From: a virus | Taxonomy: Duplodnaviria > Caudoviricetes | IMG/VR virus record: IMGVR_UViG_3300037508_000928 | Coordinates: 1-50,261 of that record | Strand: one strand, 5' to 3' | Length of the DNA stretch: 50,261 nucleotides | In this document: positions 2,345-50,261 of the stretch, one piece after another | How the letters are laid out: each line of letters begins with the position of its first letter | Position numbering within the stretch: the stretch's first letter is position 1 | The notes under the pieces: model-generated | The model's database searches: none | Seen by the model: the letters and a program-made list of their open reading frames with translations, nothing else | Told to the model about the DNA's origin: nothing | Program-made: the position numbers and the translations under genes

Positions 2345-3016
2345 ATGAGTCTCCCCACCCCCGGCAAGATTGACAACAGCGAAGACCTCCTTCGTCTGTT
2401 CGGTATCGAGCCTGCTGGAACTGACGCAGCCCCTTTGCCGAAACTGACGACTGGCTTGGTTGTTGGTACTGCCAACTACACCAACGCCGAGTTGAATGCG
2501 GCACTTGGCGGTGGAACGGTTTCCTTCGCCATGAAGACGCCTAACGCGGCAACTTCGAGCGCGCGGACTGGCACAACTGAAGCGATATTCTCGACCGGGA
2601 GCCAGTCTCTCACAACCGAGGAACTCAATCGCGTCGGTGCCGTCATCGAGTTTGAAGCCCGCATCCTGGTTACTGGCAGCAACGGCGCTGACACGCAGAC
2701 CTTTGCCATTCGGCTGGGTGGCGTTGGCGGAACTGTGATTCATTCCACTGGTCCAGTAGGCTTTGCTGCCGATGATATTGTGTTCCTGAGTGGTCGGATC
2801 ACGGTTCGCACGACAGGAGCGACAGGAACCATCGTTGCAGGCGGCAGGTCAATGGCCGAAGTTTCTGCGACGGCAGCAGCGGTTCCGTGGCGGCTTGCTT
2901 CGACAACCGTTGACCTCACAGCCAACGCGGTGCTCTGCGTTACCGCCGACGCTTCCAGCGCGAACGCAGGTAACACGGCGGTACTGGAGGACTTCCACGT
3001 CCGCGTCATTAACTAA
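2345..3016 (+). CDS. Putative capsid decoration protein
   Basis: TAAGGAG RBS; Ala/Gly/Thr-rich beta protein in the head operon. Confidence 0.55.
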   Translation: MSLPTPGKIDNSEDLLRLFGIEPAGTDAAPLPKLTTGLVVGTANYTNAELNAALGGGTVSFAMKTPNAATSSARTGTTEAIFSTGSQSLTTEELNRVGAVIEFEARILVTGSNGADTQTFAIRLGGVGGTVIHSTGPVGFAADDIVFLSGRITVRTTGATGTIVAGGRSMAEVSATAAAVPWRLASTTVDLTANAVLCVTADASSANAGNTAVLEDFHVRVIN

Positions 3017-3080
3017 CCCCGACCAGGCGCTCTAAGTGGGGCGTCTGGTGATTCGATAAACCGAAGCTACATAGGAAAAG

Positions 3081-3141
3081 ACATAGCCCCCACGGAAAAC
3101 CGTCGCGGCCTACTCCTTACGGAGTGGGCCGCTTTCATTTT
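3081..3141 (+). promoter_or_regulatory. Leader RNA switch copy 1 (antiterminator overlapping an intrinsic terminator) upstream of the major capsid gene
   Basis: ACATAGCCCCCACGGAAA is identical to 47359-47376. Terminator stem GCGGCCTACTCC-TTAC-GGAGTGGGCCGC is followed by TTTCATTTT. Confidence 0.75.
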
Positions 3142-3171
3142 CTCGGGGCTTCCAAGAAAAGGAGGCTTATC

Positions 3172-4503
3172 ATGGCCGGACCCTCTCTGATTACGACCGC
3201 TGGGCCGCTGGTGACGACCGACCGCATTGACGGAATCCGCCAGCCGTCCCGCAACCCGAACGTAACGAAGTACACGCCTTTCTCCAAGGCGTACCCGACC
3301 CTGTGGCGCATGGACAAGATCGCCAAGGGGTCGAAGGAAACCGTTGACGCTAACGAGCGCATCTGGTATCAGGCTGCCTACAACGGCCTGAACGGAACGG
3401 TGGGCGACATCCTGACCGAAGTAAGCGGTGCCGCTTACGTGTCGGGTGGTGTGGCCAACACCGTGCTCATTCTGAAGTGCGCCACGGCATCCATCCCGGC
3501 GTTCCGCAATGTGCAGCAGAACGATGTCCTAGTGATTCAGGACAGCGTGACTGGCTTGGACGTGTTTGCTCGCGTGACCGGCGCTCCGGTGTTCGGTGGC
3601 GACAGCAACACCTACGTCTCGGTGACGTTGCTCACGGCAGACGCCAGCGCGATTCTGGCGAGCGCCAGCCTGACGTGGTGCATCACCCAGCGCGCCGAGA
3701 AGGAAATCTACGAGCTTGGAGACGCTGTTTCCGAGCACGAGACGCCCTTCATGAACTACGTGCAGGAGATGAGCGAGGCTCACGAAATCTCCGAGCGCGA
3801 ACTCATGGTCAAGAGCGAACTCAACGAGAACCGCAAGGCCGACCGCGCGCGGGAATCGTTGGTGCGCCTGATGCAGAAGCGTTTCCGCACGCTGCTCTAC
3901 GGCCAGCGTCTCTCTGCCGGAAGCGGGCGTTTCTACGCCGGTGGCCTCCGTTGGTTCCTTGAAACCTACGAGTCGGCCAACTTGGTCAACTGGGCCACGG
4001 ACACGACCTACTCGGCGGCAACTGACCGTGTATCGAGCGGAACCATCCCGTTCCTGCGCGAGATTGCGATTCAGGCGTCGAAGTACACCGACCCCACCGA
4101 CACGCTGACCATGCTCATGAGCCAGACGAAGAAGAACATCCTCTCTTCGTGCGTGCTCAACTCTGGCCACTACACGATCTCGAAGGAAACGAATTCCTTC
4201 GGGTTGGAAGTGGACATGCTGCTTGGTGTGGGCCCGAAGATCGAACTGATGGTCGAGGCTGAGTTCAACACCAACCCGGTGCTTGCTCAGGCCACGCCGC
4301 TGTTCCCGACCAAGTTCATCAAGGTTTGCCCGTTCAAGAACGGCGCCGTGACCCAGATTCCCTGGAGTTCGATGCCCGCACAGCGCGACGGCGACAACTT
4401 CAAGACCTCGATCAAGGGTGGCCATCGCGTCATTGAGACGTATGAGTTCCACCACATCGACTCGATGTTCTGGATTCGCAACCTCGGCGTTGACAAGGCC
4501 TAA
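3172..4503 (+). CDS. Major capsid protein (DUF5309/SU10-like HK97 fold)
   Basis: AAGGAGG RBS before ATG 3172; 443 aa; motifs NYVQEMSEAHEIS, RTLLYG and RFYAGGLRWF recall this capsid family; position after scaffold. Confidence 0.8.
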   Translation: MAGPSLITTAGPLVTTDRIDGIRQPSRNPNVTKYTPFSKAYPTLWRMDKIAKGSKETVDANERIWYQAAYNGLNGTVGDILTEVSGAAYVSGGVANTVLILKCATASIPAFRNVQQNDVLVIQDSVTGLDVFARVTGAPVFGGDSNTYVSVTLLTADASAILASASLTWCITQRAEKEIYELGDAVSEHETPFMNYVQEMSEAHEISERELMVKSELNENRKADRARESLVRLMQKRFRTLLYGQRLSAGSGRFYAGGLRWFLETYESANLVNWATDTTYSAATDRVSSGTIPFLREIAIQASKYTDPTDTLTMLMSQTKKNILSSCVLNSGHYTISKETNSFGLEVDMLLGVGPKIELMVEAEFNTNPVLAQATPLFPTKFIKVCPFKNGAVTQIPWSSMPAQRDGDNFKTSIKGGHRVIETYEFHHIDSMFWIRNLGVDKA

Positions 4504-5876: not shown

Positions 5877-7422
5877 AGCGTTCAACGGACGCAACACCCA
5901 AGCCTTCGTCAATGCCAAGGGACACCGTGTTACGGAACACGGGTTTAAGGCGTTCCATGCCCTGACGGCGCTCCCTGATGATGCCACGATTGCTGGACTC
6001 GGTGAATCAAAGGCGTGGCCATTCCCTCAGACGTTCATTGGAAAAGCCATCTCACTTGTCTGCTTCTCGGATGCGATCTATGAATACAGCCTGGGTGGTG
6101 GCACGTATACCCAGTTGAACACGAAGGACGCTGCCGATACTACGGGGACCACCTCGAAGGCAATCACTGCCGGAAAGGACTGGCACTTCGTTGATCTCTA
6201 CGACTCGTGGATGCTGTTCAACACCGCCTGCGTCGTATTCAAGACCAAGTGGAGCGAGCATGTCTTTGTGCAGGACGCGGTGACGGTTACTACCGGCTGT
6301 GTCCACAAAGAAGGCAGGGTTCTACTCGGCGGCTTCAACCCGGCTGACTACCTCTCGTCGGTGAACTGGGCAACCTTCTGGGAAACCTATGCTGCCGACC
6401 GGCCTGACCAGGCTGCGCTGATGGAGTCTGCTGGCGCTGGGGTCAACTGGGTTTGGTGGTCGAGCTACTTCGCCCCGGACATGCTTCACCTGTTCTGGCA
6501 GGACATCATGATCCACCAGTCATTGAGCGCCAGCAACACAGGGTATGGCGCGAGCAACCCGTTCATGCTCGAACTGGAAGAACTCAACCAGTCGGGCCTG
6601 CGCCCAATGCCGTGGCAGGGGGCGGTGCAAGGAATGCTCCCGCTTGGCCGTGGGGTAGCTGTGTATGGCTCTCTTGGAACCTCCGTTCTGAATCCCTACG
6701 GCGACACCTATGGAGTTATTGCACCGAGGGATTTGCCTCCGAATTTCGCTCTTATGAACGGCAGTGACACGCGCACCAACTTTGCTGGGAATGAGCAAAT
6801 GCACGTTGTCGTAGATTCCAGTGGGGAACTCTGGACTATCGACGAGTCGTATCTGGCAAAACGGATAGGCCGCAAGGCAGAGATCGGGGCGCTAGACCCT
6901 GATACCCTGATGGTGGTTCACGAGCACTACCACAACGAATTCTATATTGGCGATGGCAGCGGGGACGCCTTCCTTTTTAACAAGCAAGGTTTCAGTCGCG
7001 CCCCTTGGATGCCGACACAGGTGACAACCCTGTCAGCATCTCAGATTTACTCTGTTTCCTTTGCTACAGACAATGCCGCTGCTTACACCACCGAGAAGTT
7101 TCGCGGGCGTAGCCAGGGCATTGAATGCCTTGAGCGCATTCTTATCGTGGGGCTCAACGAAGGAACCACGCACGGCTGGGAATGTTCCCTGAAGTACCGA
7201 CTTCGCCCGCAAGACGACTTCACCTCAACCGATTGGTTTGAACTCGATGCCGAGGGCGGCGTTGATTTCGGCCTCCCTTACCTTGAAGCAGAAATTGCCC
7301 TTCGCAGCGATGACCGAACCAAGGTCACGCTGGAAGACATCCTTGTCTATTCCGGCCCCATGAACAACCCGGCGATGGGGCATTGGATGCGTGCATCTAC
7401 CCCGGCAGCCGCAACGGAGTAA
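5827..7422 (+). CDS. Tail tubular B / nozzle-like protein, paralog 1
   Basis: 531-aa beta-rich protein sharing motifs with the next two ORFs; TTG start uncertain. Confidence 0.6.
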   Translation: MEPLSFKIACRTGIRPEAFNGRNTQAFVNAKGHRVTEHGFKAFHALTALPDDATIAGLGESKAWPFPQTFIGKAISLVCFSDAIYEYSLGGGTYTQLNTKDAADTTGTTSKAITAGKDWHFVDLYDSWMLFNTACVVFKTKWSEHVFVQDAVTVTTGCVHKEGRVLLGGFNPADYLSSVNWATFWETYAADRPDQAALMESAGAGVNWVWWSSYFAPDMLHLFWQDIMIHQSLSASNTGYGASNPFMLELEELNQSGLRPMPWQGAVQGMLPLGRGVAVYGSLGTSVLNPYGDTYGVIAPRDLPPNFALMNGSDTRTNFAGNEQMHVVVDSSGELWTIDESYLAKRIGRKAEIGALDPDTLMVVHEHYHNEFYIGDGSGDAFLFNKQGFSRAPWMPTQVTTLSASQIYSVSFATDNAAAYTTEKFRGRSQGIECLERILIVGLNEGTTHGWECSLKYRLRPQDDFTSTDWFELDAEGGVDFGLPYLEAEIALRSDDRTKVTLEDILVYSGPMNNPAMGHWMRASTPAAATE

Positions 7423-28620: not shown

Positions 28621-28797
28621 TACCTCAAAAGTACCAATTGACGGTAAAAAGGGCACGATTTGAAATGTAAATCCAGTGTTTCCGTAGGGTAAGCTATACT
28701 GCGTCAACATCATGTCAAGAGTCTCCTATACTGTAAGTGTTTGCAGCACAACACTTAAAGAATCGCCTTGACGTACCTGATACCATAACGATACCAT
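28619..28797. other. Putative attP region
   Basis: AT-richer intergenic region before the integrase. TACC-core repeat pairs at 11-bp spacing at both ends (28619/28630; 28779/28790). Palindrome TAAGTGTT-N8-AACACTTA (28734-28757) with IHF-like CAA-N4-TTA. Confidence 0.5.
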
Positions 28798-28832
28798 CCT
28801 GCCAGCTTAATCGCGTTGATTTTGGAGGCAAT

Positions 28833-29885
28833 ATGGCTATCAAGAAGGCAGTCGAATACCGGGGAGTCACGCTCTCCAAGCCGAAGGGGAGCAAGTTCTA
28901 CTCGATGCGCTGGCGCAATGCGGCAGGCCAGCAGGTGCGCCGCTCGACGGGGACATCTGACCCGGCGCTGGCCAAGCAGATTCGAGACTCCCTGGCGGAA
29001 CAGCTTCTCCGCTCGCGCTTCAACATCGAGCCCACGGCGAAGGACTTCACTCCTGACGACGCTTGGGACTTCTACATTGAGCACCAGTCCGAAGTGTCCG
29101 AGAGGACGCTCTATCACGCGCTTAGTGCCTGGAGGCGCTTCTGGAAGGTGACGGGCTCACCTACGCTGGCTTCCGTGCAGCCAGTTGACATCCTTCGCTT
29201 CCAGAAGCTAATGCAGGCCGAGGGGCGAAAGCCCAGCTACGTGAACAACATCATGCGGGTTGTCTCATCGGTCTACGTCAAGTTGGTGCGCTGGGGGGAA
29301 CTCACTTGCGCCAATCCCTTTGCCGCTGTGGACAGGGTAAAGGAAGGAGCGCCCGCCCCGAAGTATCGCCCGTGGCCAGAAGTCGAGGCGATGCTCACCG
29401 TGGCGAAGAAGCAGGGCGACGACATCTACCTGTTTTGCATCCTGTGTTCTCATGCCGGAGCCCGCCACGGGGAGGCTATCGCCAGTCGGTGGGAAGATGT
29501 TGGATGGGAAAACGGCAGCTTCCGCATCCGTGGAACAAAGACGCGGGGGAGTGCAGCCACAATCCCGCTCCACGACGCGCTACGGGCTGCGCTGTGGCCT
29601 TATCGCAAAGAGAGCGGGTACATCGTGGCAAATGGCACCGACGCCCATCCTGACCCACTACGCCCTCACGCGCGCTGGGGGTATCAGTCACGCTGGGAGA
29701 CATTGGTGAAGGCAACCGGATTCAAGGGGTCGCCGCACACCCTTCGCCACTCGTTTGCAACTCACTTGCTCGAACTGGGATATGACCCAGTGTTGCTTGT
29801 GAAGCTGATGCGGCATACGAATCTGGCGATGACTTCGCACTACGCAAACCTGCTGGCCGTCGTCCCCACGATGGACAGATTCTAA
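28833..29885 (+). CDS. int: Tyrosine integrase
   Basis: GGAGG RBS before ATG 28833; N-terminal arm-binding 'RRSTGT'; catalytic R (GARHGE), K (GTKT), HTLRH, RHT and HY. Confidence 0.95.
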   Translation: MAIKKAVEYRGVTLSKPKGSKFYSMRWRNAAGQQVRRSTGTSDPALAKQIRDSLAEQLLRSRFNIEPTAKDFTPDDAWDFYIEHQSEVSERTLYHALSAWRRFWKVTGSPTLASVQPVDILRFQKLMQAEGRKPSYVNNIMRVVSSVYVKLVRWGELTCANPFAAVDRVKEGAPAPKYRPWPEVEAMLTVAKKQGDDIYLFCILCSHAGARHGEAIASRWEDVGWENGSFRIRGTKTRGSAATIPLHDALRAALWPYRKESGYIVANGTDAHPDPLRPHARWGYQSRWETLVKATGFKGSPHTLRHSFATHLLELGYDPVLLVKLMRHTNLAMTSHYANLLAVVPTMDRF

Positions 29886-43650: not shown

Positions 43651-44250
43651 ATGACTACGACAGCCGAGCAGGTCGATAGCGCGACCAGTATCGAAGACCT
43701 CCCGCCGCTCTGGGGTGAGGTAGCGAGTTTGGCTGGCACGGTTCCTCTTGTTGACGTGTCGATTCTGGCTGGCCACTTCAAGCGCCCGAAGAAGGAGATT
43801 GAGCGGATACTCGCTCATCCTGCGGTAGCGGAGCACGTCGAGTACCTGAAGGCTGAGATAGCCTTGCGGGTCGGCAAGGAAGCTGGGACGTTGACCGAGG
43901 CGCGCAGTTCTGCGATTCAGAAGATTGCGGAGCGTCTCCAGGACGACGACATTCCGTTGCCGGTGTTGATTAAGACAGCGCAGTTCCTGTGCGACTACAA
44001 CCCTGACCGGAAGTTCGTGAAGATTGAGAAGCGCGAGGAGCACCGGACGGTGGAGCACACTATCCGCGAGCACACGCTGCTGGACATCAAGGCTCGTGCG
44101 CTGGAGAATTTCCGCCGCGTCCCTGTTGAGCTTATCCCGGCTGCTTCGGTGGAGTACACCGAGGCTGACCCTGACGAGCGAGACGACTTTTCCGAGGCTG
44201 GGATTTGCGCGATTGAGAAGCAGCTTGAGGAAGAGGGGGTACTCAGCTAA
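43651..44250 (+). CDS. Putative terminase small subunit
   Basis: First late gene after TTGACA (43615); N-terminal HTH-like segment, helical core and acidic tail. Confidence 0.5.
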   Translation: MTTTAEQVDSATSIEDLPPLWGEVASLAGTVPLVDVSILAGHFKRPKKEIERILAHPAVAEHVEYLKAEIALRVGKEAGTLTEARSSAIQKIAERLQDDDIPLPVLIKTAQFLCDYNPDRKFVKIEKREEHRTVEHTIREHTLLDIKARALENFRRVPVELIPAASVEYTEADPDERDDFSEAGICAIEKQLEEEGVLS

Positions 44251-44504
44251 TGGAACCCTCCCTGAATCCCTTGAACCTGTCGCACCTCTCTTTCGAGGAG
44301 AAGGTCCGCCGCTTCAATCCGTCTCACGTTGTTGAGCAGTGGAAGAAAACCTTAGGTGATCAGCTGATGATTCCTAATCCCTTACTAGATCGCCTATCGC
44401 GTTTTGCTACTAAAAATGAACTTCCTTTCCCTTACTATTCGAGCACTATGGCGGAGTGGAACAAAATACTCTTGGCCGAACTCTTGAAAAGAGCCGCCCA
44501 ATGA
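44250..44504 (+). CDS. Hypothetical protein
   Basis: Coupled at both ends; 84 aa; AT-richer. Confidence 0.55.
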   Translation: MEPSLNPLNLSHLSFEEKVRRFNPSHVVEQWKKTLGDQLMIPNPLLDRLSRFATKNELPFPYYSSTMAEWNKILLAELLKRAAQ

Positions 44505-45585: not shown

Positions 45586-45849
45586 ATGCCAGCAAACGAC
45601 CCTGGCACCTTCGACTTCATGCACGTAATGGCGGCTTATGCTGTGACAGCAGGCACGGCGGCACTTGGCTGGATTTGGAGGACCGACCGTAAGGTGGCAC
45701 TCATGGACAACGACCACGACCACCATCACAAGGCTTTCTTGGATTTGAAAGAGTCCTACATACGGCTGGACTCAAAGATCGACCACCTCAGCGACACGCT
45801 GAAGGAAATCCAGCACGACATGCCCAAGCGTAAGACGGAGCAGAAATAA
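45586..45849 (+). CDS. Holin/XhlA-like TM + coiled-coil protein
   Basis: N-terminal TM followed by coiled coil RLDSKIDHL. Confidence 0.5.
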   Translation: MPANDPGTFDFMHVMAAYAVTAGTAALGWIWRTDRKVALMDNDHDHHHKAFLDLKESYIRLDSKIDHLSDTLKEIQHDMPKRKTEQK

Positions 45850-46835
45850 TGGCCAACACGCGCCTGACAACGCCCGGTGAACTGGGGGATTCTCTGAAGA
45901 ATCTCTCCCGGTCCATTGAGTCTATCGCGCGCAAGATGGAGGCCGAGGAACGCTACTGGCAGTCCGAGCTTGCCCGAGGCGAGCACGCCCTGACACTCAA
46001 AACCCGCATGGACAATATGTTCGAGGGTACGAATGCCGAGCTTCGTCGGCTTGGTCAGGAGCTTGGCAACGAGTCCACGGCGCCATTGCTTTCGACGGTG
46101 TTCAAGACCCAGTGGCGCGCCGGGGTGAACAACTCCCTTCGCTACTTCACGACAGGGGCGAGCAACGGGCTGGTATTCACTTCGTCTGGCGCTGCCCAGG
46201 GGCTGGTGCTGATTGACTACCTCGACGTTGGCCCCAACTACGACATCTTCCTTGGGCTTGCCTTGAATGACGTGATCCGGGTTTCCGGCTGCTCTGAAGT
46301 TACCCATAACGGGTTGCGTTCCGTGCGCTGGGATGCGAAGGCAAAGGGCAACGGCGGCTCCGATTACGGGCTGACCCAGGGTGATTTCTCTGGTTCTGGC
46401 TCTGACTGGACTGGCGGTACGGATTGGACGGTGAACACGGGCGCGGGCATTTACACCTACGCTGCGGCTTCGCCCTCTACGCTGACCCAAGCGCTTGCCA
46501 GCATGACTACGACAGGCGCCTACGTGGTCCAGTTCACGGTGACGAAGATGAGTTCTGGAGTGGGGACGCTCCGCGCTTCCATCGGTGGGGACTACTACTG
46601 GGAAAAGACGTACACCGCTGATACTGCGGCAGCGAGGACATACAGCTTTGTGACCAACTCCCCGAGCACGACGCCGACGCTCACCTTTACGGCCACGCGC
46701 AGTTCTGGGGTGTTCTCGGTGACTATCGACAACGTGTACGTCTACGGCTATCAGGGGCTCGTGGTTTCTGAGGCTTTCCCGAGCGAAGAGACAGGGCTGA
46801 AGACCATCATCACACTGGAGCAGACGGCTGCATAG
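45849..46835 (+). CDS. Putative virion protein with C-terminal CBM-like domain
   Basis: Helical N-terminus; QGDFS..W...YVVQFTV...IDNV beta domain resembling the inserts at ~4950 and ~7730. Confidence 0.5.
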   Translation: MANTRLTTPGELGDSLKNLSRSIESIARKMEAEERYWQSELARGEHALTLKTRMDNMFEGTNAELRRLGQELGNESTAPLLSTVFKTQWRAGVNNSLRYFTTGASNGLVFTSSGAAQGLVLIDYLDVGPNYDIFLGLALNDVIRVSGCSEVTHNGLRSVRWDAKAKGNGGSDYGLTQGDFSGSGSDWTGGTDWTVNTGAGIYTYAAASPSTLTQALASMTTTGAYVVQFTVTKMSSGVGTLRASIGGDYYWEKTYTADTAAARTYSFVTNSPSTTPTLTFTATRSSGVFSVTIDNVYVYGYQGLVVSEAFPSEETGLKTIITLEQTAA

Positions 46836-46847
46836 AGGAACGATTCA

Positions 46848-47249
46848 ATGGACGTGACAGGATTTGCCATGCTGGCTCAGGCCCAGGACATCAACATGAC
46901 GGGCACGGTCGTCACGACCGACACCGACATTGGCTCCGCGCGGCTCGATAAGGGCGTTGAGATTGGTGTCTTCGAGGTGCTCAACAACAGTGCCACGAAG
47001 GCGCTCAACAACTTCGAGGTGTGGGTGAAGGCCCATGCTTCTGGTTCTTGGCGCTTGCTGGTGAGCGACTTCACGACCGAGGACAGCGTGATGCTCTGCT
47101 GCCCGGTTGCGGTTGATACGCTGGCGGCGGGAGCGGCTTCCATACTCATGCTTCGGACGGGCCCGATTGACGCGATCAAGTTTGTGGCTTCGACTTCCAG
47201 CGGCGGTGCTGCTGCGGCTTCGGTGACGGTACGAGGACGGATGCAGTAA
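46848..47249 (+). CDS. Putative small beta-sandwich virion protein
   Basis: GAGG RBS; 133-aa beta-rich protein. Confidence 0.5.
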   Translation: MDVTGFAMLAQAQDINMTGTVVTTDTDIGSARLDKGVEIGVFEVLNNSATKALNNFEVWVKAHASGSWRLLVSDFTTEDSVMLCCPVAVDTLAAGAASILMLRTGPIDAIKFVASTSSGGAAAASVTVRGRMQ

Positions 47250-47350
47250 TGACTGACCGCGTGTTCTGGATAGCAATTCGGCGCGCGTTGAAGATGGCCA
47301 TTTCGGCCATTGAGGTTCGATGGGGAATTATCCCCACCAAAGAAGGTTGA
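47249..47350 (+). CDS. 33-aa microprotein directly upstream of the RNA switch (not in ORF track)
   Basis: TAATG-coupled; MTDRVFWIAIRRALKMAISAIEVRWGIIPTKEG; stop 8 nt before the conserved motif. Confidence 0.7.
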   Translation: MTDRVFWIAIRRALKMAISAIEVRWGIIPTKEG

Positions 47351-47358
47351 CGAGAAAC

Positions 47359-47421
47359 ACATAGCCCCCACGGAAACGTCGCGGCGTACCACTCCCCGGA
47401 GTTGGTGCGCCGTTTTTGTTT
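47359..47421 (+). promoter_or_regulatory. Leader RNA switch copy 2 upstream of the large terminase gene
   Basis: ACATAGCCCCCACGGAAACGTCGCGGC, then terminator CGGCGTACCACTCC-CC-GGAGTTGGTGCGCCG-TTTTTGTTT. Confidence 0.75.
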
Positions 47422-47432
47422 GGAGTCTAACA

Positions 47433-49160
47433 GTGCCGAGAAAGAAGCGAGATGCCAAAGTACATGCGTGGGACTACGCCCAAGTAGCCCGCGAGCATGG
47501 CGTCACGCTCACGAACGACGCCGTGATGCAGGAGACGATTGTTCGTTGCCTGGAGCCCACGGGAGCGCGCGGCGATCTCGAATCCACTGGGACCGAGTTT
47601 TTCTCCCGCACCTTCTTCCCCGGCATGTTCAAGAAGCCCAACACCCATCAGCAGTACGAGTACCTTAGGCTGATTGACGATGACACGATCCCCTTCCTTG
47701 CCGTCCTCGCACGCCGCCGCTTTGCCAAGACCACGATTGGGCTTGGCTTCCTGACGCGGAGGCTTGCGCTCAGGTCGGAAAAGTTCATCCTGTACCACAG
47801 CGGCATTTACGACATTGCTGCCCAGCGCACAGAAGCCCTGAAGGGGATGCTGCTATCGCCACAGATTTCCGCCTATTTCGGGGACATGAACCCCGAGCGG
47901 TATCAGGGTCGGAGCCCAGCCTTCAGCAAAGACGCCTGGTTCCTCGTGAACCCGGCAACGAATACCCCTTTTGCCTGTGTGATGCCCAAGGGCGCACTTC
48001 AGGCCTGCAACGGGGCGCTGGCTCCCTTGGACGATGGTATGTCGCGCGTCACCCTCATCTGGGCGGACGACTCCCAGCCCCGCGCGAACATCGACAACGA
48101 AGCTGTGCGCCAGCGCTACGAAGACTGGGTATACGGCGAGCTCCTTCAGACGGTGGACAACGACGAGCAGCCGACCGGCAAAGACAGCCGCTGGGATGCC
48201 CCGGAGACTGGGGCTTGGACGGCGCCTTGGCGCGTCATTCTCAGCGACACCTGCAAGCACACAGACGCTTGGATGATGAATGCGCTGGCCGATGCTGAAT
48301 GGCATAGCCGGACGTATCCCCTGGCCATCGAGACTTCTCCTGGTGTGTATTCCAGCCTTGACGCCAATGTGTCGAACAAGAATGTTCAGGCGCTTGCCGC
48401 CCGCTTCAGGGCCCGCCCGGACGTTTTCGCCCGCGAGTACCTGTGCAAGCCCCGCTCCTCTGCCGAGAAGGGCTTCGACGAGAACTGGCTGAAGCACTAC
48501 AACGACCGGCGCGCTTCTCCCAATTGGGGTGAAGAACACAAGCGATTCCTTGTGGTTGACCCTGCCTGCACGAAGGATAAGAAGTCGGCCTGCACGTCGA
48601 TCCTTGGCTGTGCCGTCAATCCATACGGGCGCAAGATTCGTTTCCGCGACAACCTCGTTCGGAAGATGTACCCCGAGGAAATGTTCCGCAATCTCTTCGA
48701 CATGGCCCTCGCGCTCAAGACGCGCACGATTGCCGTTGAGGAAACAGGCGGCAGCAAGATGCTGCGCTACACCTTCGAGCAGGCCGCCAAGGCGCGCGGG
48801 CTTGGTGGCGAGATTCGCTGGATTTGGCTCAAGTCCAACCGTAGCGAGTACGACGGCGACGAGAGCATCAAGCAGCTTCGCGGCGAAATGCTGCTTCCTT
48901 ACTACGAAGACGGGCTGATTGAGCATGACGAATCCCTGCGCCATGGCCCGCTCGAACGTGCCCTGAAGCCTTTCCCCTTCTGCAAACAGTGGGACGCTGT
49001 GGATACCGCAGCGCACTCCCTGGCCGTGATGAAGGAAATGGGAATCCTCCTGCACCCGGACCCGAAGAAGGTGCTCTCTTTCGAGCTTGACGACTCGGAC
49101 GCCCGCAAAGACAAAGACCTTCAGGACTTCCTGAACAACCTCGAATGGTGTATGCCATGA
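47433..49160 (+). CDS. terL: Terminase large subunit
   Basis: GGAG RBS then GTG 47433; Walker A variant RRRFAKTT, Walker B IWADD, FAREY, nuclease VVDPA, AVEETG and WDAVD. Confidence 0.88.
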   Translation: MPRKKRDAKVHAWDYAQVAREHGVTLTNDAVMQETIVRCLEPTGARGDLESTGTEFFSRTFFPGMFKKPNTHQQYEYLRLIDDDTIPFLAVLARRRFAKTTIGLGFLTRRLALRSEKFILYHSGIYDIAAQRTEALKGMLLSPQISAYFGDMNPERYQGRSPAFSKDAWFLVNPATNTPFACVMPKGALQACNGALAPLDDGMSRVTLIWADDSQPRANIDNEAVRQRYEDWVYGELLQTVDNDEQPTGKDSRWDAPETGAWTAPWRVILSDTCKHTDAWMMNALADAEWHSRTYPLAIETSPGVYSSLDANVSNKNVQALAARFRARPDVFAREYLCKPRSSAEKGFDENWLKHYNDRRASPNWGEEHKRFLVVDPACTKDKKSACTSILGCAVNPYGRKIRFRDNLVRKMYPEEMFRNLFDMALALKTRTIAVEETGGSKMLRYTFEQAAKARGLGGEIRWIWLKSNRSEYDGDESIKQLRGEMLLPYYEDGLIEHDESLRHGPLERALKPFPFCKQWDAVDTAAHSLAVMKEMGILLHPDPKKVLSFELDDSDARKDKDLQDFLNNLEWCMP

Positions 49161-50261
49161 TCGCTGAGAAGACCAACATTTCAGCGGAATTGACCCGCAA
49201 AATGCGGGATAAGGCCAGCGGGCATTACCCGAAGGATGTTGACCTGCGCGTTGGCAGCAAGACGCACGACAAGCTGCTGAAGATGCTGGAGCGCTGCGCC
49301 GAACGAGGCTACAACGCCAACACCGAGATCATCCCGGAACTCCGGCAGGTAGACCGCCAGATTGACGGCTACATGGAGACGGATTGGTTCGACAAGCAGA
49401 TGTTAGGGCGCGACCCCCGGCGCCCGATGACGATTGTGTTCCCCATGGCCGCTGCCGGTAACAACCGCTGGCTCACGGCCATGCACAGGACTTTCAACAA
49501 GCAGGCGACTCTGCACCGCTACGAAGGACCGGGTGGGCGCCGCCGTGCTGCTGCTGCCGATGTCGCTGCCAAGGTCATTGGCTACCAGTCCTCGAAATTC
49601 CACGAGCGCCGCGCGAACGACATCCACTGGGGACAAGCCCACGACCATGGCCGCGCCTATATGTGGGGTAAGTGGTCCAAGAAAACCGCTCCTTCCTACA
49701 CGATAACGAAGGTGGACGACATCATGGCGCTCGTCATGGAGCAGCAAGGCCTTGATGGCTACGCTTCTGGCGACCTTGTGCGGCACCTGAGCGACGAGAC
49801 GGAAGTGATCTGCGAGGGGACGGAATGGAAGCCCCTCGACAATTACCAGGTGCTCACCGACCAGAGCCGCGCGCCCGACGAATTCCATCTGTCTGGCTTC
49901 TTCGGCTGGGTGGCGACCACTGACAGCCAGTTGCTTCTGAGCGAAGAGAGTGACCCTGAAGAGAACCTGTTCAACTGCGAGGCGCTTCATGCCTTCGTAA
50001 GCGAAGAGGGTGGCAAGAGCCGCTGGTGGCGCAGCCAAGTAGACAGGGAAGAGCGTGCAGGCGTTGACCCTGACGCGGCGATGAACCACGGCGGCGAGAG
50101 CACCGAGGTTCACGTCGTCTACCTCATCGTGCGGCTGATTCCCCGTGACTTCAATCTCAGCGACTCGAAGAAACCCCAGCTTTGGATGTTTGCCTTCGCC
50201 GCTGACAACGTGATCATCATGGCCCACCAGTTACGCCATCGCCATGGGGAGTTCCCCGTGG
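49157..50261 (+). CDS. Portal protein, N-terminal part (runs off the window end)
   Basis: ATGA-coupled to terL; 368 codons with no stop (translated by hand); continues in frame into base 1. Confidence 0.8.
   Translation, partial: MIAEKTNISAELTRKMRDKASGHYPKDVDLRVGSKTHDKLLKMLERCAERGYNANTEIIPELRQVDRQIDGYMETDWFDKQMLGRDPRRPMTIVFPMAAAGNNRWLTAMHRTFNKQATLHRYEGPGGRRRAAAADVAAKVIGYQSSKFHERRANDIHWGQAHDHGRAYMWGKWSKKTAPSYTITKVDDIMALVMEQQGLDGYASGDLVRHLSDETEVICEGTEWKPLDNYQVLTDQSRAPDEFHLSGFFGWVATTDSQLLLSEESDPEENLFNCEALHAFVSEEGGKSRWWRSQVDREERAGVDPDAAMNHGGESTEVHVVYLIVRLIPRDFNLSDSKKPQLWMFAFAADNVIIMAHQLRHRHGEFPV

What the first reader, a model, noticed from the sequence alone, without database searches (positions are those of the whole stretch)
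47249..47421. 33-aa microprotein abutting the RNA switch: candidate cognate antiterminator
Seen: an unannotated, translationally coupled ORF (MTDRVFWIAIRRALKMAISAIEVRWGIIPTKEG, one amphipathic basic helix) stops 8 nt before switch copy 2. Copy 1 has no such ORF, so any role there must be in trans. The layout parallels Mu Com with its adjacent RNA target and lambda N with boxB. Inference: a microprotein made from the first late operon binds both leaders and licenses terminase, portal and capsid expression, forming a timing circuit. With the RNA motif this is the best candidate for an undescribed system in the window.
Basis: partly seen in the sequence, partly recalled or inferred. Interest (0 to 1): 0.85.

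Follow-up and report, generated by a model that had tools for sequence, protein, structure and literature searches.

The report
Conserved phage microprotein beside late-gene terminator
The 33-residue reading frame is a real gene of a large, unnamed family of one-helix phage microproteins that nearly always sits just before a transcription stop signal guarding capsid or packaging genes, which makes it a candidate tiny regulator, although nothing yet shows that it binds the RNA.

Summary
A relative with 77% identical terminase keeps it, with the same overlapping start. A profile of the family finds 796 cluster representatives in metagenome proteins. Its codons carry a clear coding signature (pN/pS 0.36, against 1.2-1.4 in the shifted frames). 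AlphaFold2 predicts one helix, residues 3-24. Pfam, PHROGs and NCBIfam have no match, and three tBLASTn searches of 50,697 cultured phage genomes found nothing.

In 56 non-redundant IMG/VR loci:
- the gene overlaps the stop of a variable upstream gene in 30 of 45 loci;
- a strong intrinsic terminator follows within 160 nt in 39 of 56 (10 of 99 for comparable ORFs);
- a consensus -10 box follows in 23 of 56;
- scaffold, capsid, portal or terminase genes come next.

The window's 29-nt RNA box occurs only in its own clade, most peptide homologs lack it, and some leaders lack the peptide. The helix is mostly hydrophobic and not arginine-rich, and no binding evidence was obtained.

My best reading, at about 0.4, is a small trans-acting factor of a terminator-gated late-operon cassette. 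The function is unproven.

The parts
46848..47249 (+). Upstream 133-aa ORF of unknown function. Its TAA stop shares one base with the microprotein's ATG.
   Evidence: No Pfam or PHROG hit. A homolog is kept in relative L003 (60% identity by blastx).
47233..47237 (+). Shine-Dalgarno-like GAGGA, 11 nt before the microprotein's ATG.
   Evidence: Read directly from the sequence.
47249..47350 (+). Microprotein gene, 33 aa: one amphipathic helix (residues 3-24) and a short tail. It belongs to a large unnamed family with the N-terminal consensus MTDREFWLxIRRALLMxVxAIEKRY.
47359..47385 (+). Conserved leader box, copy 2 (ACATAGCCCCCACGGAAACGTCGCGGC). It holds a small hairpin at 47364-47385 (GCC / 3x3 internal loop / ACG-GAAA-CGT / GGC). 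The hairpin's 3' strand overlaps the base of the terminator.
   Evidence: The inner stem covaries in the relative (ACG/CGT to AGG/CCT; ACGG/CCGT in copy 1). The hairpin alone is -7.2 kcal/mol.
47381..47421 (+). Intrinsic terminator: hairpin 47381-47413, then T-run TTTTTGTTT to 47421.
   Evidence: Script (-22.9 kcal/mol) and fold. The simple scanner missed it, probably because of a bulge in the stem (my inference, not tested).
47422..49160 (+). GGAG ribosome-binding site (47422-47425) and the terminase large subunit gene (GTG 47433 to 49160).
   Evidence: phrog_38 at E 3.9e-33. The relative's TerL is 77% identical.
3081..3142 (+). Leader copy 1, with no microprotein gene: box 3081-3109, terminator hairpin 3105-3132, T-run to 3142.
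   Evidence: Fold (-29.6 kcal/mol for the whole stretch). No family ORF nearby.
3160..4503 (+). AGGAGG (3160-3165) and the capsid-like gene (ATG 3172 to 4503) behind leader copy 1.
   Evidence: The Pfam SU10_MCP hit is weak and below its cutoff (E 4e-4).

Best explanation
Shown (confidence about 0.95). The ORF is a real protein-coding gene. It belongs to a large, undescribed family of phage microproteins of 27-92 aa. The family has a conserved 25-residue amphipathic helix and a variable tail.

Also shown: the gene is part of a recurring cassette. It is translationally coupled to whatever gene lies upstream. Next comes, in about 40% of loci, a consensus or extended -10 promoter box that starts at or just after its stop codon. 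After that comes a short structured leader ending in a strong intrinsic terminator. Immediately behind the terminator lie the ribosome-binding site and start of a scaffold, capsid, portal, protease or terminase gene.

Inferred (the confidence below applies to this part). The microprotein is a small trans-acting factor of this terminator gate. It is made from the preceding transcription unit. It acts on the transcription complex or on the leader so that RNA polymerase reads through the terminator into the head and packaging genes. In layout this resembles lambda Q with PR'-tR'. In the window's clade it also resembles RAT-type antitermination, because a small conserved hairpin shares bases with the terminator stem. 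In this clade there is no sigma70-type -10 box and the gate is duplicated, before TerL and before the capsid gene, so one factor would serve two gates.
For: Real gene:
- The relative with 77% identical TerL keeps a 30-aa homolog with the same one-base stop/start overlap.
- Over 56 non-redundant loci, entropy by codon position is 0.87/0.55/1.62. pN/pS is 0.36 in frame, against 1.20 and 1.42 in the shifted frames.
- A profile search of 1.84 billion representatives gives 796 hits at E<=1e-3 and 66 at E<=1e-10. The best 150 are 30-92 aa long.
- AlphaFold2 predicts a helix at residues 3-24, pLDDT 86.6.

Cassette:
- The start overlaps the upstream stop in 30 of 45 loci where an upstream ORF was found (20 with a 4-nt overlap, 5 with 1 nt, 4 with 8 nt, 1 with 25 nt). 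In 36 of 45 it overlaps or lies within 3 nt.
- A strong terminator (dG <= -15) ends within 160 nt of the stop in 39 of 56 loci. The figure is 15 of 304 for other ORF ends and 10 of 99 for ORF ends followed by a gap of 60 nt or more (odds ratio 20).
- TA[TC]AAT lies within -12..+45 of the stop in 23 of 56 loci, against 0.016 expected per window.
- PHROG tallies for the downstream genes of the 56: scaffold families 15/14/12, major head 10, portal 5, protease 4, TerL 3.
- Upstream genes vary: MuF-like 7, Neck1-like 5, TerL 2, sigma factor 1 and regulator 1 of 45.

Pointer to a conserved target, host or nucleic acid:
- The helix stays 39-63% identical between phages whose neighbouring genes are not detectably related. 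Of 17 loci compared with the window's proteins by blastx, only the close relative matched. Downstream proteins are 9-23% identical in a forced alignment, apart from one close pair at 77%.

No rival regulator seen:
- None of the 25 PHROG families shown (of 37 matched) for 31 ORFs of the window's early and regulatory region (plus ORFs 44250-44504, 45849-46835 and the 133-aa ORF) is an antiterminator.

The leader box is under constraint:
- AGCCCCCA...TCGCGGC is invariant in all four copies (window and relative), while the inner stem covaries.
Against: - There is no direct evidence of any molecular activity.
- The helix is 59% hydrophobic. It has 3-6 Arg+Lys and a mean net charge of +1.4. That is unlike known RNA-binding arginine-rich peptides, and it is too small for a known DNA-binding fold.
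- The link is not obligatory. 17 of 56 loci have no strong terminator within 160 nt. In several of these another ORF sits in between, HNH-like as I read L047.
- Leader-like elements occur without the gene: window copy 1, and L164, L169 and L183 by eye.
- Leaders are heterogeneous. The GCCGCA-type box occurs in 11 of 39. No single RNA partner therefore matches the single conserved helix.
- In some loci the upstream genes are themselves head or packaging genes (MuF 7, TerL 2). A factor encoded there would not obviously be made before the genes that it licenses.
- The 56 clusters are not phylogenetically independent, and the terminator finder is my own script.
- All loci come from one collection (IMG/VR) plus one MAG contig.
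Confidence: 0.4

Rival explanations
1. One reading: the peptide is a sequence-specific RNA-binding antiterminator, in the manner of lambda N with boxB or Mu Com with its target. It would bind the window's 29-nt box in both leaders and stabilise the small hairpin against the terminator.
For: - The small hairpin shares 3-5 bases with the base of the terminator stem, so stabilising it could impair termination.
- The box is invariant in four copies while its inner stem covaries.
- The gene lies 8 nt upstream of one copy.
- A subfamily carries a basic tail, PRT[SA]ELRK-like, for example L051, L063, L068, L074, L105 and L116.
Against: - The box occurs only in the window's clade. Two pattern scans of viral contigs found it there, plus two chance matches inside coding sequence. 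The peptide occurs in at least 54 other non-redundant loci.
- The conserved core is not arginine-rich. Among the arginines only R11 is nearly invariant across 50 sequences, and R4 is often K.
- There is no Cys, so no Com-like zinc finger.
- Loop sequences of the 5' hairpins differ between family leaders (GNRA or UUCG types). A boxB-like loop read-out is therefore not conserved.
- The hairpin (-7.2 kcal/mol) is far weaker than the terminator (about -23).
Confidence: 0.12
2. The peptide is a head-assembly or DNA-packaging accessory microprotein. Its gene is simply the last gene of the transcription unit that ends at the terminator, and the promoter and leader belong to the next operon.
For: - It always lies within or at the edge of the head and packaging module.
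- It is often coupled to a MuF-like minor head protein gene (7 of 45).
- A hydrophobic amphipathic helix suits binding to a larger protein.
Against: - The helix is much better conserved than the head proteins around it, which are not detectably related between loci. A partner that co-evolves with rapidly diverging head proteins would not be expected to stay this constant.
- Upstream partners vary widely. They include a sigma factor and a regulator.
- The window's own context is different again: an unknown 133-aa ORF upstream and TerL downstream.
Confidence: 0.2
3. The peptide has some other host-directed function, such as host takeover, chaperone or membrane targeting, or counter-defence. Its position next to the gate is incidental.
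For: High conservation across unrelated phages suggests a conserved host target. Many small phage proteins of this kind exist (general knowledge, recalled).
Against: The positional link to the terminator and the -10 box is very strong. That would be unexplained. Accessory genes of this sort are usually patchy, not fixed at one place.
Confidence: 0.15
4. The ORF acts in cis: it is an upstream ORF or arrest peptide. Its translation would modulate folding of the leader or transcription through it, as with TnaC or leader-peptide attenuation, and the peptide itself would have no function in trans.
For: - It is short and sits next to a terminator.
- A Trp and neighbouring residues are conserved.
- The tails are variable, which would fit a stall after the conserved part.
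Against: - The distance from the conserved core and from the stop codon to the terminator varies widely. The terminator starts 24 to about 100 nt after the stop, and the tails are 2-30 aa. A ribosome-positioning mechanism does not tolerate that.
- In 23 of 56 loci a -10 box lies between the ORF and the leader, so transcripts that start there do not contain the ORF.
- Other ORFs are inserted between the ORF and the leader in some loci.
- There is a confident amphipathic helix.
Confidence: 0.07
5. The ORF is a chance open frame, not a gene.
For: It is very short, the DNA is GC-rich and full of spurious ORFs, and no family library matches it.
Against: It shows a frame-specific coding signature. 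It has 796 profile hits. It is conserved with synonymous change in relatives.
Confidence: 0.01

Closest known systems
Lambdoid late control: Q gene, PR' promoter, short terminated transcript (6S RNA), tR', late genes (recalled knowledge)
   Same: The order of parts matches: a factor gene directly upstream, a promoter that looks activator-independent (extended -10 in many loci), a short structured leader ending in an intrinsic terminator, then late (head and packaging) genes. In about ten loci I read by eye a second -10-like GAATA(N) element about 10 nt after the -10 box. That is reminiscent of sigma-dependent pause elements. I did not test it.
   Different: Q proteins are much larger DNA-binding proteins (sizes recalled). 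This is a 25-residue helix with no Pfam, PHROG or NCBIfam match. The window's own clade has no sigma70-type -10 box after the ORF. No Q-binding element or pause was tested.
BglG/SacY/LicT antiterminators acting on RAT hairpins that overlap a terminator
   Same: In the window's clade a small conserved hairpin with an internal loop shares 3-5 bases with the 5' base of the terminator stem. A factor that stabilises it could block termination. By eye, the aligned GCCGCA-type leaders show a 3-bp CGC-loop-GCG hairpin in the same position.
   Different: The RNA-binding CAT domain is a beta-stranded dimer of about 55 aa with regulatory PRD domains (recalled). This is one helix with no such domains and no family match.
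Lambda N with boxB, and other arginine-rich-motif peptides (recalled knowledge)
   Same: A short helical N-terminal peptide, and a small hairpin capped by GAAA in the window's leader. One gene serves two sites in the genome, as with nutL and nutR.
   Different: The core is not arginine-rich: 3-6 Arg+Lys, 59% hydrophobic, mean net charge +1.4. Loop sequences are not conserved across the family. The hairpin abuts its terminator, whereas a nut site confers processive antitermination from a distance.
Mu Com with the mom mRNA (recalled knowledge)
   Same: A small phage protein encoded just upstream of an RNA structure that controls the next gene.
   Different: Com is a zinc-finger protein of about 62 aa that activates translation (recalled). 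This family has no conserved Cys or His, and the RNA structure is a transcription terminator.
Small RNA-polymerase-binding phage antiterminators: P23-45 gp39 (PMC3351154; I saw only the title and the start of the abstract in the listing) and Xp10 p7 (recalled)
   Same: Small phage proteins that let the host polymerase read through intrinsic terminators without a specific RNA site. This would fit one conserved helix serving heterogeneous leaders.
   Different: Those proteins are several times larger (sizes recalled), are unrelated in sequence, and are not known to sit in a cassette with the terminator on which they act. No contact with polymerase was shown here; one search gave no answer.

Membership tests
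The microprotein family defined here (consensus MTDREFWLxIRRALLMxVxAIEKRY) | An N-terminal 25-residue motif with invariant Trp7 and Ile21 and nearly invariant Phe6, Arg11, Ala13, Leu14, Ala20 and Glu22. | tested here: met
   The window's peptive scores E 6.4e-16 against the family profile; one search gives 1.7e-16. It carries all the listed residues.
The microprotein family defined here | Genomic setting: the start is coupled to the upstream gene, and a leader plus intrinsic terminator and then a head or packaging gene lie downstream. | tested here: met
   TAATG overlap, terminator 47381-47421, TerL at 47433. Family-wide: 39 of 56 loci have the terminator and 30 of 45 overlap the upstream stop.
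Lambda N / arginine-rich-motif antiterminators | An arginine-rich motif, with about 5 or more Arg in about 20 residues (recalled definition). | tested here: not met
   The core has 3-6 Arg+Lys in 25 residues, a mean net charge of +1.4 and is 59% hydrophobic. Among the arginines only Arg11 is nearly invariant.
Lambda N / arginine-rich-motif antiterminators | A boxB-type hairpin with a conserved GNRA-like loop, plus boxA, far upstream of the terminators. | tested here: not met
   The window's hairpin has a GAAA loop, or AAAA in copy 1. It overlaps its terminator. Loops in family leaders vary between GNRA and UUCG types. I did not search for a boxA.
Mu Com | A Cys4 zinc finger (recalled definition). 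| tested here: not met
   The window's peptide has no Cys or His, and the family has none conserved.
Lambda Q-type late antitermination | The factor gene lies directly upstream of a constitutive promoter, followed by a promoter-proximal terminator and the late genes. | tested here: inconclusive
   The layout holds in many family loci: a -10 box in 23 of 56 and a terminator in 39 of 56. The window's clade has no -10 box at this place.
Lambda Q-type late antitermination | Membership of a Q protein family, DNA binding at the promoter, and a sigma-dependent pause. | tested here: not met
   For protein-family membership there is no Pfam, PHROG or NCBIfam match at E<=1. DNA binding and pausing cannot be tested with these tools.
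BglG/LicT-RAT antitermination | An antiterminator hairpin that shares bases with the terminator stem. | tested here: met
   The hairpin 47364-47385 and the terminator 47381-47413 share 47381-47385. The same holds in copy 1.
BglG/LicT-RAT antitermination | A CAT RNA-binding domain and PRD domains in the factor. | tested here: not met
   No Pfam match. The model is a single helix.
Leader-peptide or arrest-peptide attenuation | Fixed spacing between the peptide's stop or stall site and the alternative RNA structures. | tested here: not met
   The terminator starts 24 to about 100 nt after the stop, the tails are 2-30 aa, and promoter boxes or whole ORFs lie in between in some loci.
Rfam RNA families (for the adjoining leader) | A match at the family's gathering score. 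| tested here: not met
   There were 0 matches in the window. In 20 family loci the only match was int-alpA, elsewhere in L107.

The most novel reading that the evidence does not exclude
A helix of about 25 residues, encoded right beside the gate, is the trans-acting key that lets host RNA polymerase read through terminator-gated head and packaging operons in hundreds of lineages of uncultured phages. It would be the smallest transcription antiterminator known, and it would supply the missing factor for the late-operon terminator/antiterminator leaders that this scan has noted in other uncultured phages.
Probability: 0.3. Interest if true: 0.9.

Novelty: new variant of a known kind. Interest (0 to 1): 0.7.

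Why it matters
If the link is functional, this is an undescribed and very widespread way for phages to switch on their virion genes. The family has 796 cluster representatives at 50% identity. It has no name in any library searched, and three tBLASTn queries against 50,697 cultured phage genomes found nothing.

The candidate factor is small enough to be made by peptide synthesis. The hypothesis could therefore be tested directly by in vitro transcription with a peptide and one DNA template. The peptide would also be a compact tool for controlling terminators.

Even if the function is different, a helix conserved across phages whose capsid genes share no detectable similarity points to an important conserved target. 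In addition, routine gene calling and family libraries leave this gene unnamed.

Tried and rejected
- Relatives through TerL. Scans of viral, metagenome and genome contigs gave essentially one independent close relative (L003, L004, L010 and L011 are the same sequence here) and one distant relative. The distant one (L016, 29% TerL) has neither ORF nor motif.
- Motif scans of viral contigs found only the window's clade, plus two chance matches inside coding sequence (L007 and L009).
- The pattern for the GCCGCA-type leader was too loose. Only 14 of the 80 had a family ORF. Most of the rest were coding-sequence matches or plain terminators, as judged by eye. It therefore gives no usable rate for 'leader without peptide', only examples (L164, L169, L183).
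- The simple terminator scanner missed both window terminators, so I wrote my own finder. Its first version tried only even hairpin lengths and missed known cases. One search replaced it.
- ESM Atlas gave no usable hit.
- A complex prediction of the peptide with the E. coli beta-flap and sigma70 region 4 (domain limits recalled from memory) gave no answer. It counts neither way.
- Expression: no RNA holder was listed. Contigs of four runs labelled lake water metagenome were identical to the window wherever they covered it, so they add no variants.
- Literature. The terms 'bacteriophage' + 'antitermination' + 'microprotein' found 0 papers. A second search, requiring 4 of the 5 terms phage / small protein / late promoter / intrinsic terminator / scaffolding, listed 10 of 13 papers, none on this family judging by title and the start of the abstract. 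I read no paper beyond these listings.
- A tail-versus-leader co-variation argument was dropped. The basic-tail subfamily mostly has one leader type, but L112 breaks the rule, and shared descent would explain the rest.
- The resemblance of FW..IRRA to the SecM arrest motif was recalled and considered. I rejected it as superficial, because the spacing differs and there is no Pro.
Full report
One search lists the ORF 47249..47350 (+) with the stated 33-residue product. One search shows the following:
- Its ATG shares one base with the TAA stop of the 133-aa ORF 46848..47249.
- A GAGGA lies 11 nt upstream of the ATG.
- The stop codon ends 8 nt before the box ACATAGCCCCCACGGAAACGTCGCGGC (47359-47385).

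The box runs into a hairpin (47381-47413) and a T-run (to 47421). A GGAG and the GTG of the terminase large subunit follow (47433; phrog_38, E 3.9e-33). A second copy of the box lies at 3081-3109. It precedes its own, different terminator hairpin and a capsid-like gene (ATG 3172; weak SU10_MCP hit below the cutoff). The window is a whole virus record of 50,261 bases. The portal frame runs across its ends.

**The ORF is a gene.**
- The closest relative (L003 and duplicates, TerL 77% identical) has a 30-aa homolog with the same stop/start overlap (TGATG). It is 57% identical, and many of the nucleotide differences are silent.
- A search of IMG/VR with the two-sequence alignment returned 18 loci, 16 of them on contigs other than the relative's. 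Wider alignments returned 23 and 70 loci.
- I scanned 83 sources (82 loci and a sub-window) with a family profile. All 83 yielded a family ORF, 10 of them after I set the start by hand. They collapsed into 56 clusters at 90% nucleotide identity over at least 150 nt.
- Over 23 core codons, mean entropy by codon position is 0.87/0.55/1.62. Mean pN/pS is 0.36 in frame, against 1.20 and 1.42 in the shifted frames.
- A profile search of 1.84 billion cluster representatives found 796 proteins at E<=1e-3 and 66 at E<=1e-10. The best 150 are 30-92 aa long.
- Ten hits were looked up. All come from metagenome sources, and none has a name other than 'hypothetical protein'.

**The family is unnamed.**
- The 14 members of A6 have no PHROG match better than E 0.17. 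Ten longer members have no meaningful Pfam or NCBIfam match at E<=1. The window's own peptide has no Pfam or PHROG match.
- Three tBLASTn queries against 50,697 cultured phage genomes found nothing: one at E<=1 and two at E<=10. Short queries have limited power, so distant members may be missed.
- One hit came from 185,579 species genomes. It lies on a MAG contig labelled Micromonosporaceae, again in front of a gene that I judge capsid-like from its N-terminal sequence alone.

**What the protein looks like.** AlphaFold2 with 50 sequences gives one helix, residues 3-24, mean pLDDT 86.6. The conserved core reads M-[TSD]-[DE]-[RK]-x-F-W-[LI]-x-[IV]-R-[RQA]-A-L-L-M-x-[VC]-x-A-I-E-[KR]-[RK]-[YW]. 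It is 59% hydrophobic, has 3-6 Arg+Lys and a mean net charge of +1.4. Tails of 2-30 residues are variable. One subfamily has a basic PRT[SA]ELRK-like tail.

**The setting is the main clue.**
- Start coupling: the ORF overlaps the stop of the upstream ORF in 30 of the 45 loci where an upstream ORF was found. In 36 of 45 it overlaps or lies within 3 nt.
- Terminator: by my own finder, a strong hairpin plus T-run (dG <= -15 kcal/mol) ends within 160 nt of the ORF's stop in 39 of 56 loci. The figure is 15 of 304 for other plus-strand ORF ends in the same loci. It is 10 of 99 for those followed by at least 60 nt without a large ORF (odds ratio 20, Fisher p 2e-14). The clusters are not independent, so the p value overstates the case.
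- Exceptions: in several of the 17 exceptions another ORF, which I read as HNH-like in L047, sits between the microprotein gene and a leader of the usual kind.
- Promoter box: a TATAAT or TACAAT box lies within -12..+45 of the stop in 23 of 56 loci, against 0.016 expected per window. It often has the TG extension, which is sometimes supplied by the TGA stop codon itself.
- Downstream genes: the terminator is followed at once by the ribosome-binding site of the next gene. By PHROG tallies over the 56 these are scaffold (families with 15, 14 and 12 members), major head protein (10), portal (5), protease (4) or TerL (3) (examples).
- Upstream genes vary: MuF-like 7, Neck1-like 5, TerL 2, a sigma factor 1 and a regulator 1 of 45.
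- Neighbours are unrelated between loci: none of the 16 more distant loci first examined shares a detectable protein with the window (blastx).

The constant unit is therefore microprotein gene, then sometimes a promoter box, then leader and terminator, then a head or packaging gene.

**The RNA side.**
- The window's 29-nt box is confined to its clade.
- Within that clade AGCCCCCA and TCGCGGC are invariant in all four copies. The inner stem covaries: ACG/CGT, ACGG/CCGT and AGG/CCT.
- The small hairpin shares bases 47381-47385 with the terminator. It is weak on its own, at -7.2 against about -23 kcal/mol.
- Other family leaders are longer and heterogeneous. A subclass has a tetraloop-capped 5' hairpin, a conserved CCGCCGCA block and a GCGCCCG...CGGGCG terminator. 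A GCCGCA-type box precedes 11 of the 39 terminators, against 9 of 94 other terminators.
- Rfam has no family for any of them.
- Three complete genomes of other family members carry their leader once, so the two-gate arrangement is particular to the window's clade.
- Leaders of the usual look without a family ORF exist: L164, L169 and L183 by eye. L172 has a divergent ORF that the profile missed.
- Earlier notes of this scan describe the same kind of late-operon leader, a small hairpin competing with a terminator, in other uncultured phages with the trigger unknown. I did not check those windows.

**Interpretation.** The gene-level claims are secure. The function is inferred from association only.

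Arguments for a trans-acting role at the gate:
- The positional link is very strong.
- The helix is conserved across phages with unrelated head genes, which points to a conserved host or nucleic-acid target rather than a co-evolving structural partner.
- None of the 25 PHROG families shown (of 37 matched) for 31 window ORFs is an antiterminator.
- The layout resembles Q-PR'-tR' (recalled knowledge).

Arguments against:
- Nothing shows binding.
- The composition is unlike that of known RNA-binding peptides.
- The link is not obligatory in either direction.
- The leaders are too varied for one conserved helix to read them sequence-specifically, which favours an action on the polymerase if there is any action at all.
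- Some upstream genes are themselves late genes.

I put about 0.4 on a gate factor of any mechanism. About 0.2 goes to a head-assembly or packaging accessory, about 0.15 to another host-directed role, and about 0.07 to a cis-acting upstream ORF or arrest peptide.

**Limits.**
- All contexts come from IMG/VR loci of about 7 kb, plus one MAG contig.
- The terminator finder and the -10 counts are simple scripts of my own.
- Family tallies from alignments show only the top 25 families.
- Statements about lambda N, Q, Com, LicT, SecM, TnaC and Xp10 p7 are recalled knowledge, not results of any call.

Noticed in passing
window 49145-50261 and 1-785: The portal-like frame is open at both ends of the window. 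The two pieces add up to 1902 nt, a multiple of three. The record therefore looks like a circularly permuted complete genome with the portal gene split by the linearisation point.
   Followed up: partly
L047 3618-4100 and L049 478-823 (also held as L029 and L031): Between the microprotein gene and its usual leader-terminator lies an extra ORF. In L047 I read it as HNH-like from its translation (not run against a family library). It looks like an insertion into this intergenic spot.
   Followed up: partly
L164 about 2300-2680; L169 about 5900-6280; L183 about 3430-3810 (coordinates in the orientation of the match): These are leaders of the GCCGCA / GCGCCCG-terminator type, some with an extended -10 box, but with no family microprotein ORF upstream. 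In L164 a different 50-aa basic ORF takes that place.
   Followed up: partly
L172, about 150 nt upstream of the pattern at 5973 (orientation of the match): A divergent microprotein (MDKEFAEVLYRALMMICRWLEHKF...) lacks the family's invariant Trp, and the profile missed it at E<=1e-3. The family is therefore wider than the 796 hits.
   Followed up: no
P0008 (57 aa) and P0102 (92 aa): P0008 carries the helix motif twice in tandem. P0102 has the helix followed by a Cys-rich tail with a weak HNH/zinc-ribbon-like match (E 0.0045, below the cutoff).
   Followed up: no
L051, L063, L068, L074, L089, L105, L116, L061: A subfamily has a second, basic motif after the helix ([IL]xP[RT]T[SA]ELR[KR]). It mostly has a different leader of about 50 nt that begins GGCAGTCC. 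L112 has the tail but the other leader type.
   Followed up: partly
L107 5195-5262: An Rfam int-alpA RNA (RF02996, 49.2 bits, gathering score 35.8) lies about 1.6 kb downstream of the microprotein cassette.
   Followed up: no
About ten family loci, for example L107, L083, L094, L093, L063 (10-11 nt after the -10 box): A second -10-like element, GAATA(N), follows the consensus -10 box at a fairly constant distance. It recalls the sigma-dependent pause elements of lambdoid late promoters. I saw it by eye only and made no statistics.
   Followed up: no
window 3017-3080: A further inverted repeat (ACCAGGCGC...GCGTCTGGT) and a duplicated ACATAG lie between the end of ORF 2345-3016, which I take to be the scaffold gene from its position only, and leader copy 1.
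   Followed up: no
window 45800-48800: Contigs of runs labelled lake water metagenome hold this stretch. Eight runs, each listed under its own study, hold at least half of the sampled words, and two of those eight may be the source. The four runs that I laid were identical to the window wherever they covered it.
   Followed up: partly
window 28737-29885: An integrase gene (phrog_1, E 8e-54) marks the phage as temperate. Its replication genes include a primase, helicases, a Sak4-like annealing protein and RusA.
   Followed up: partly
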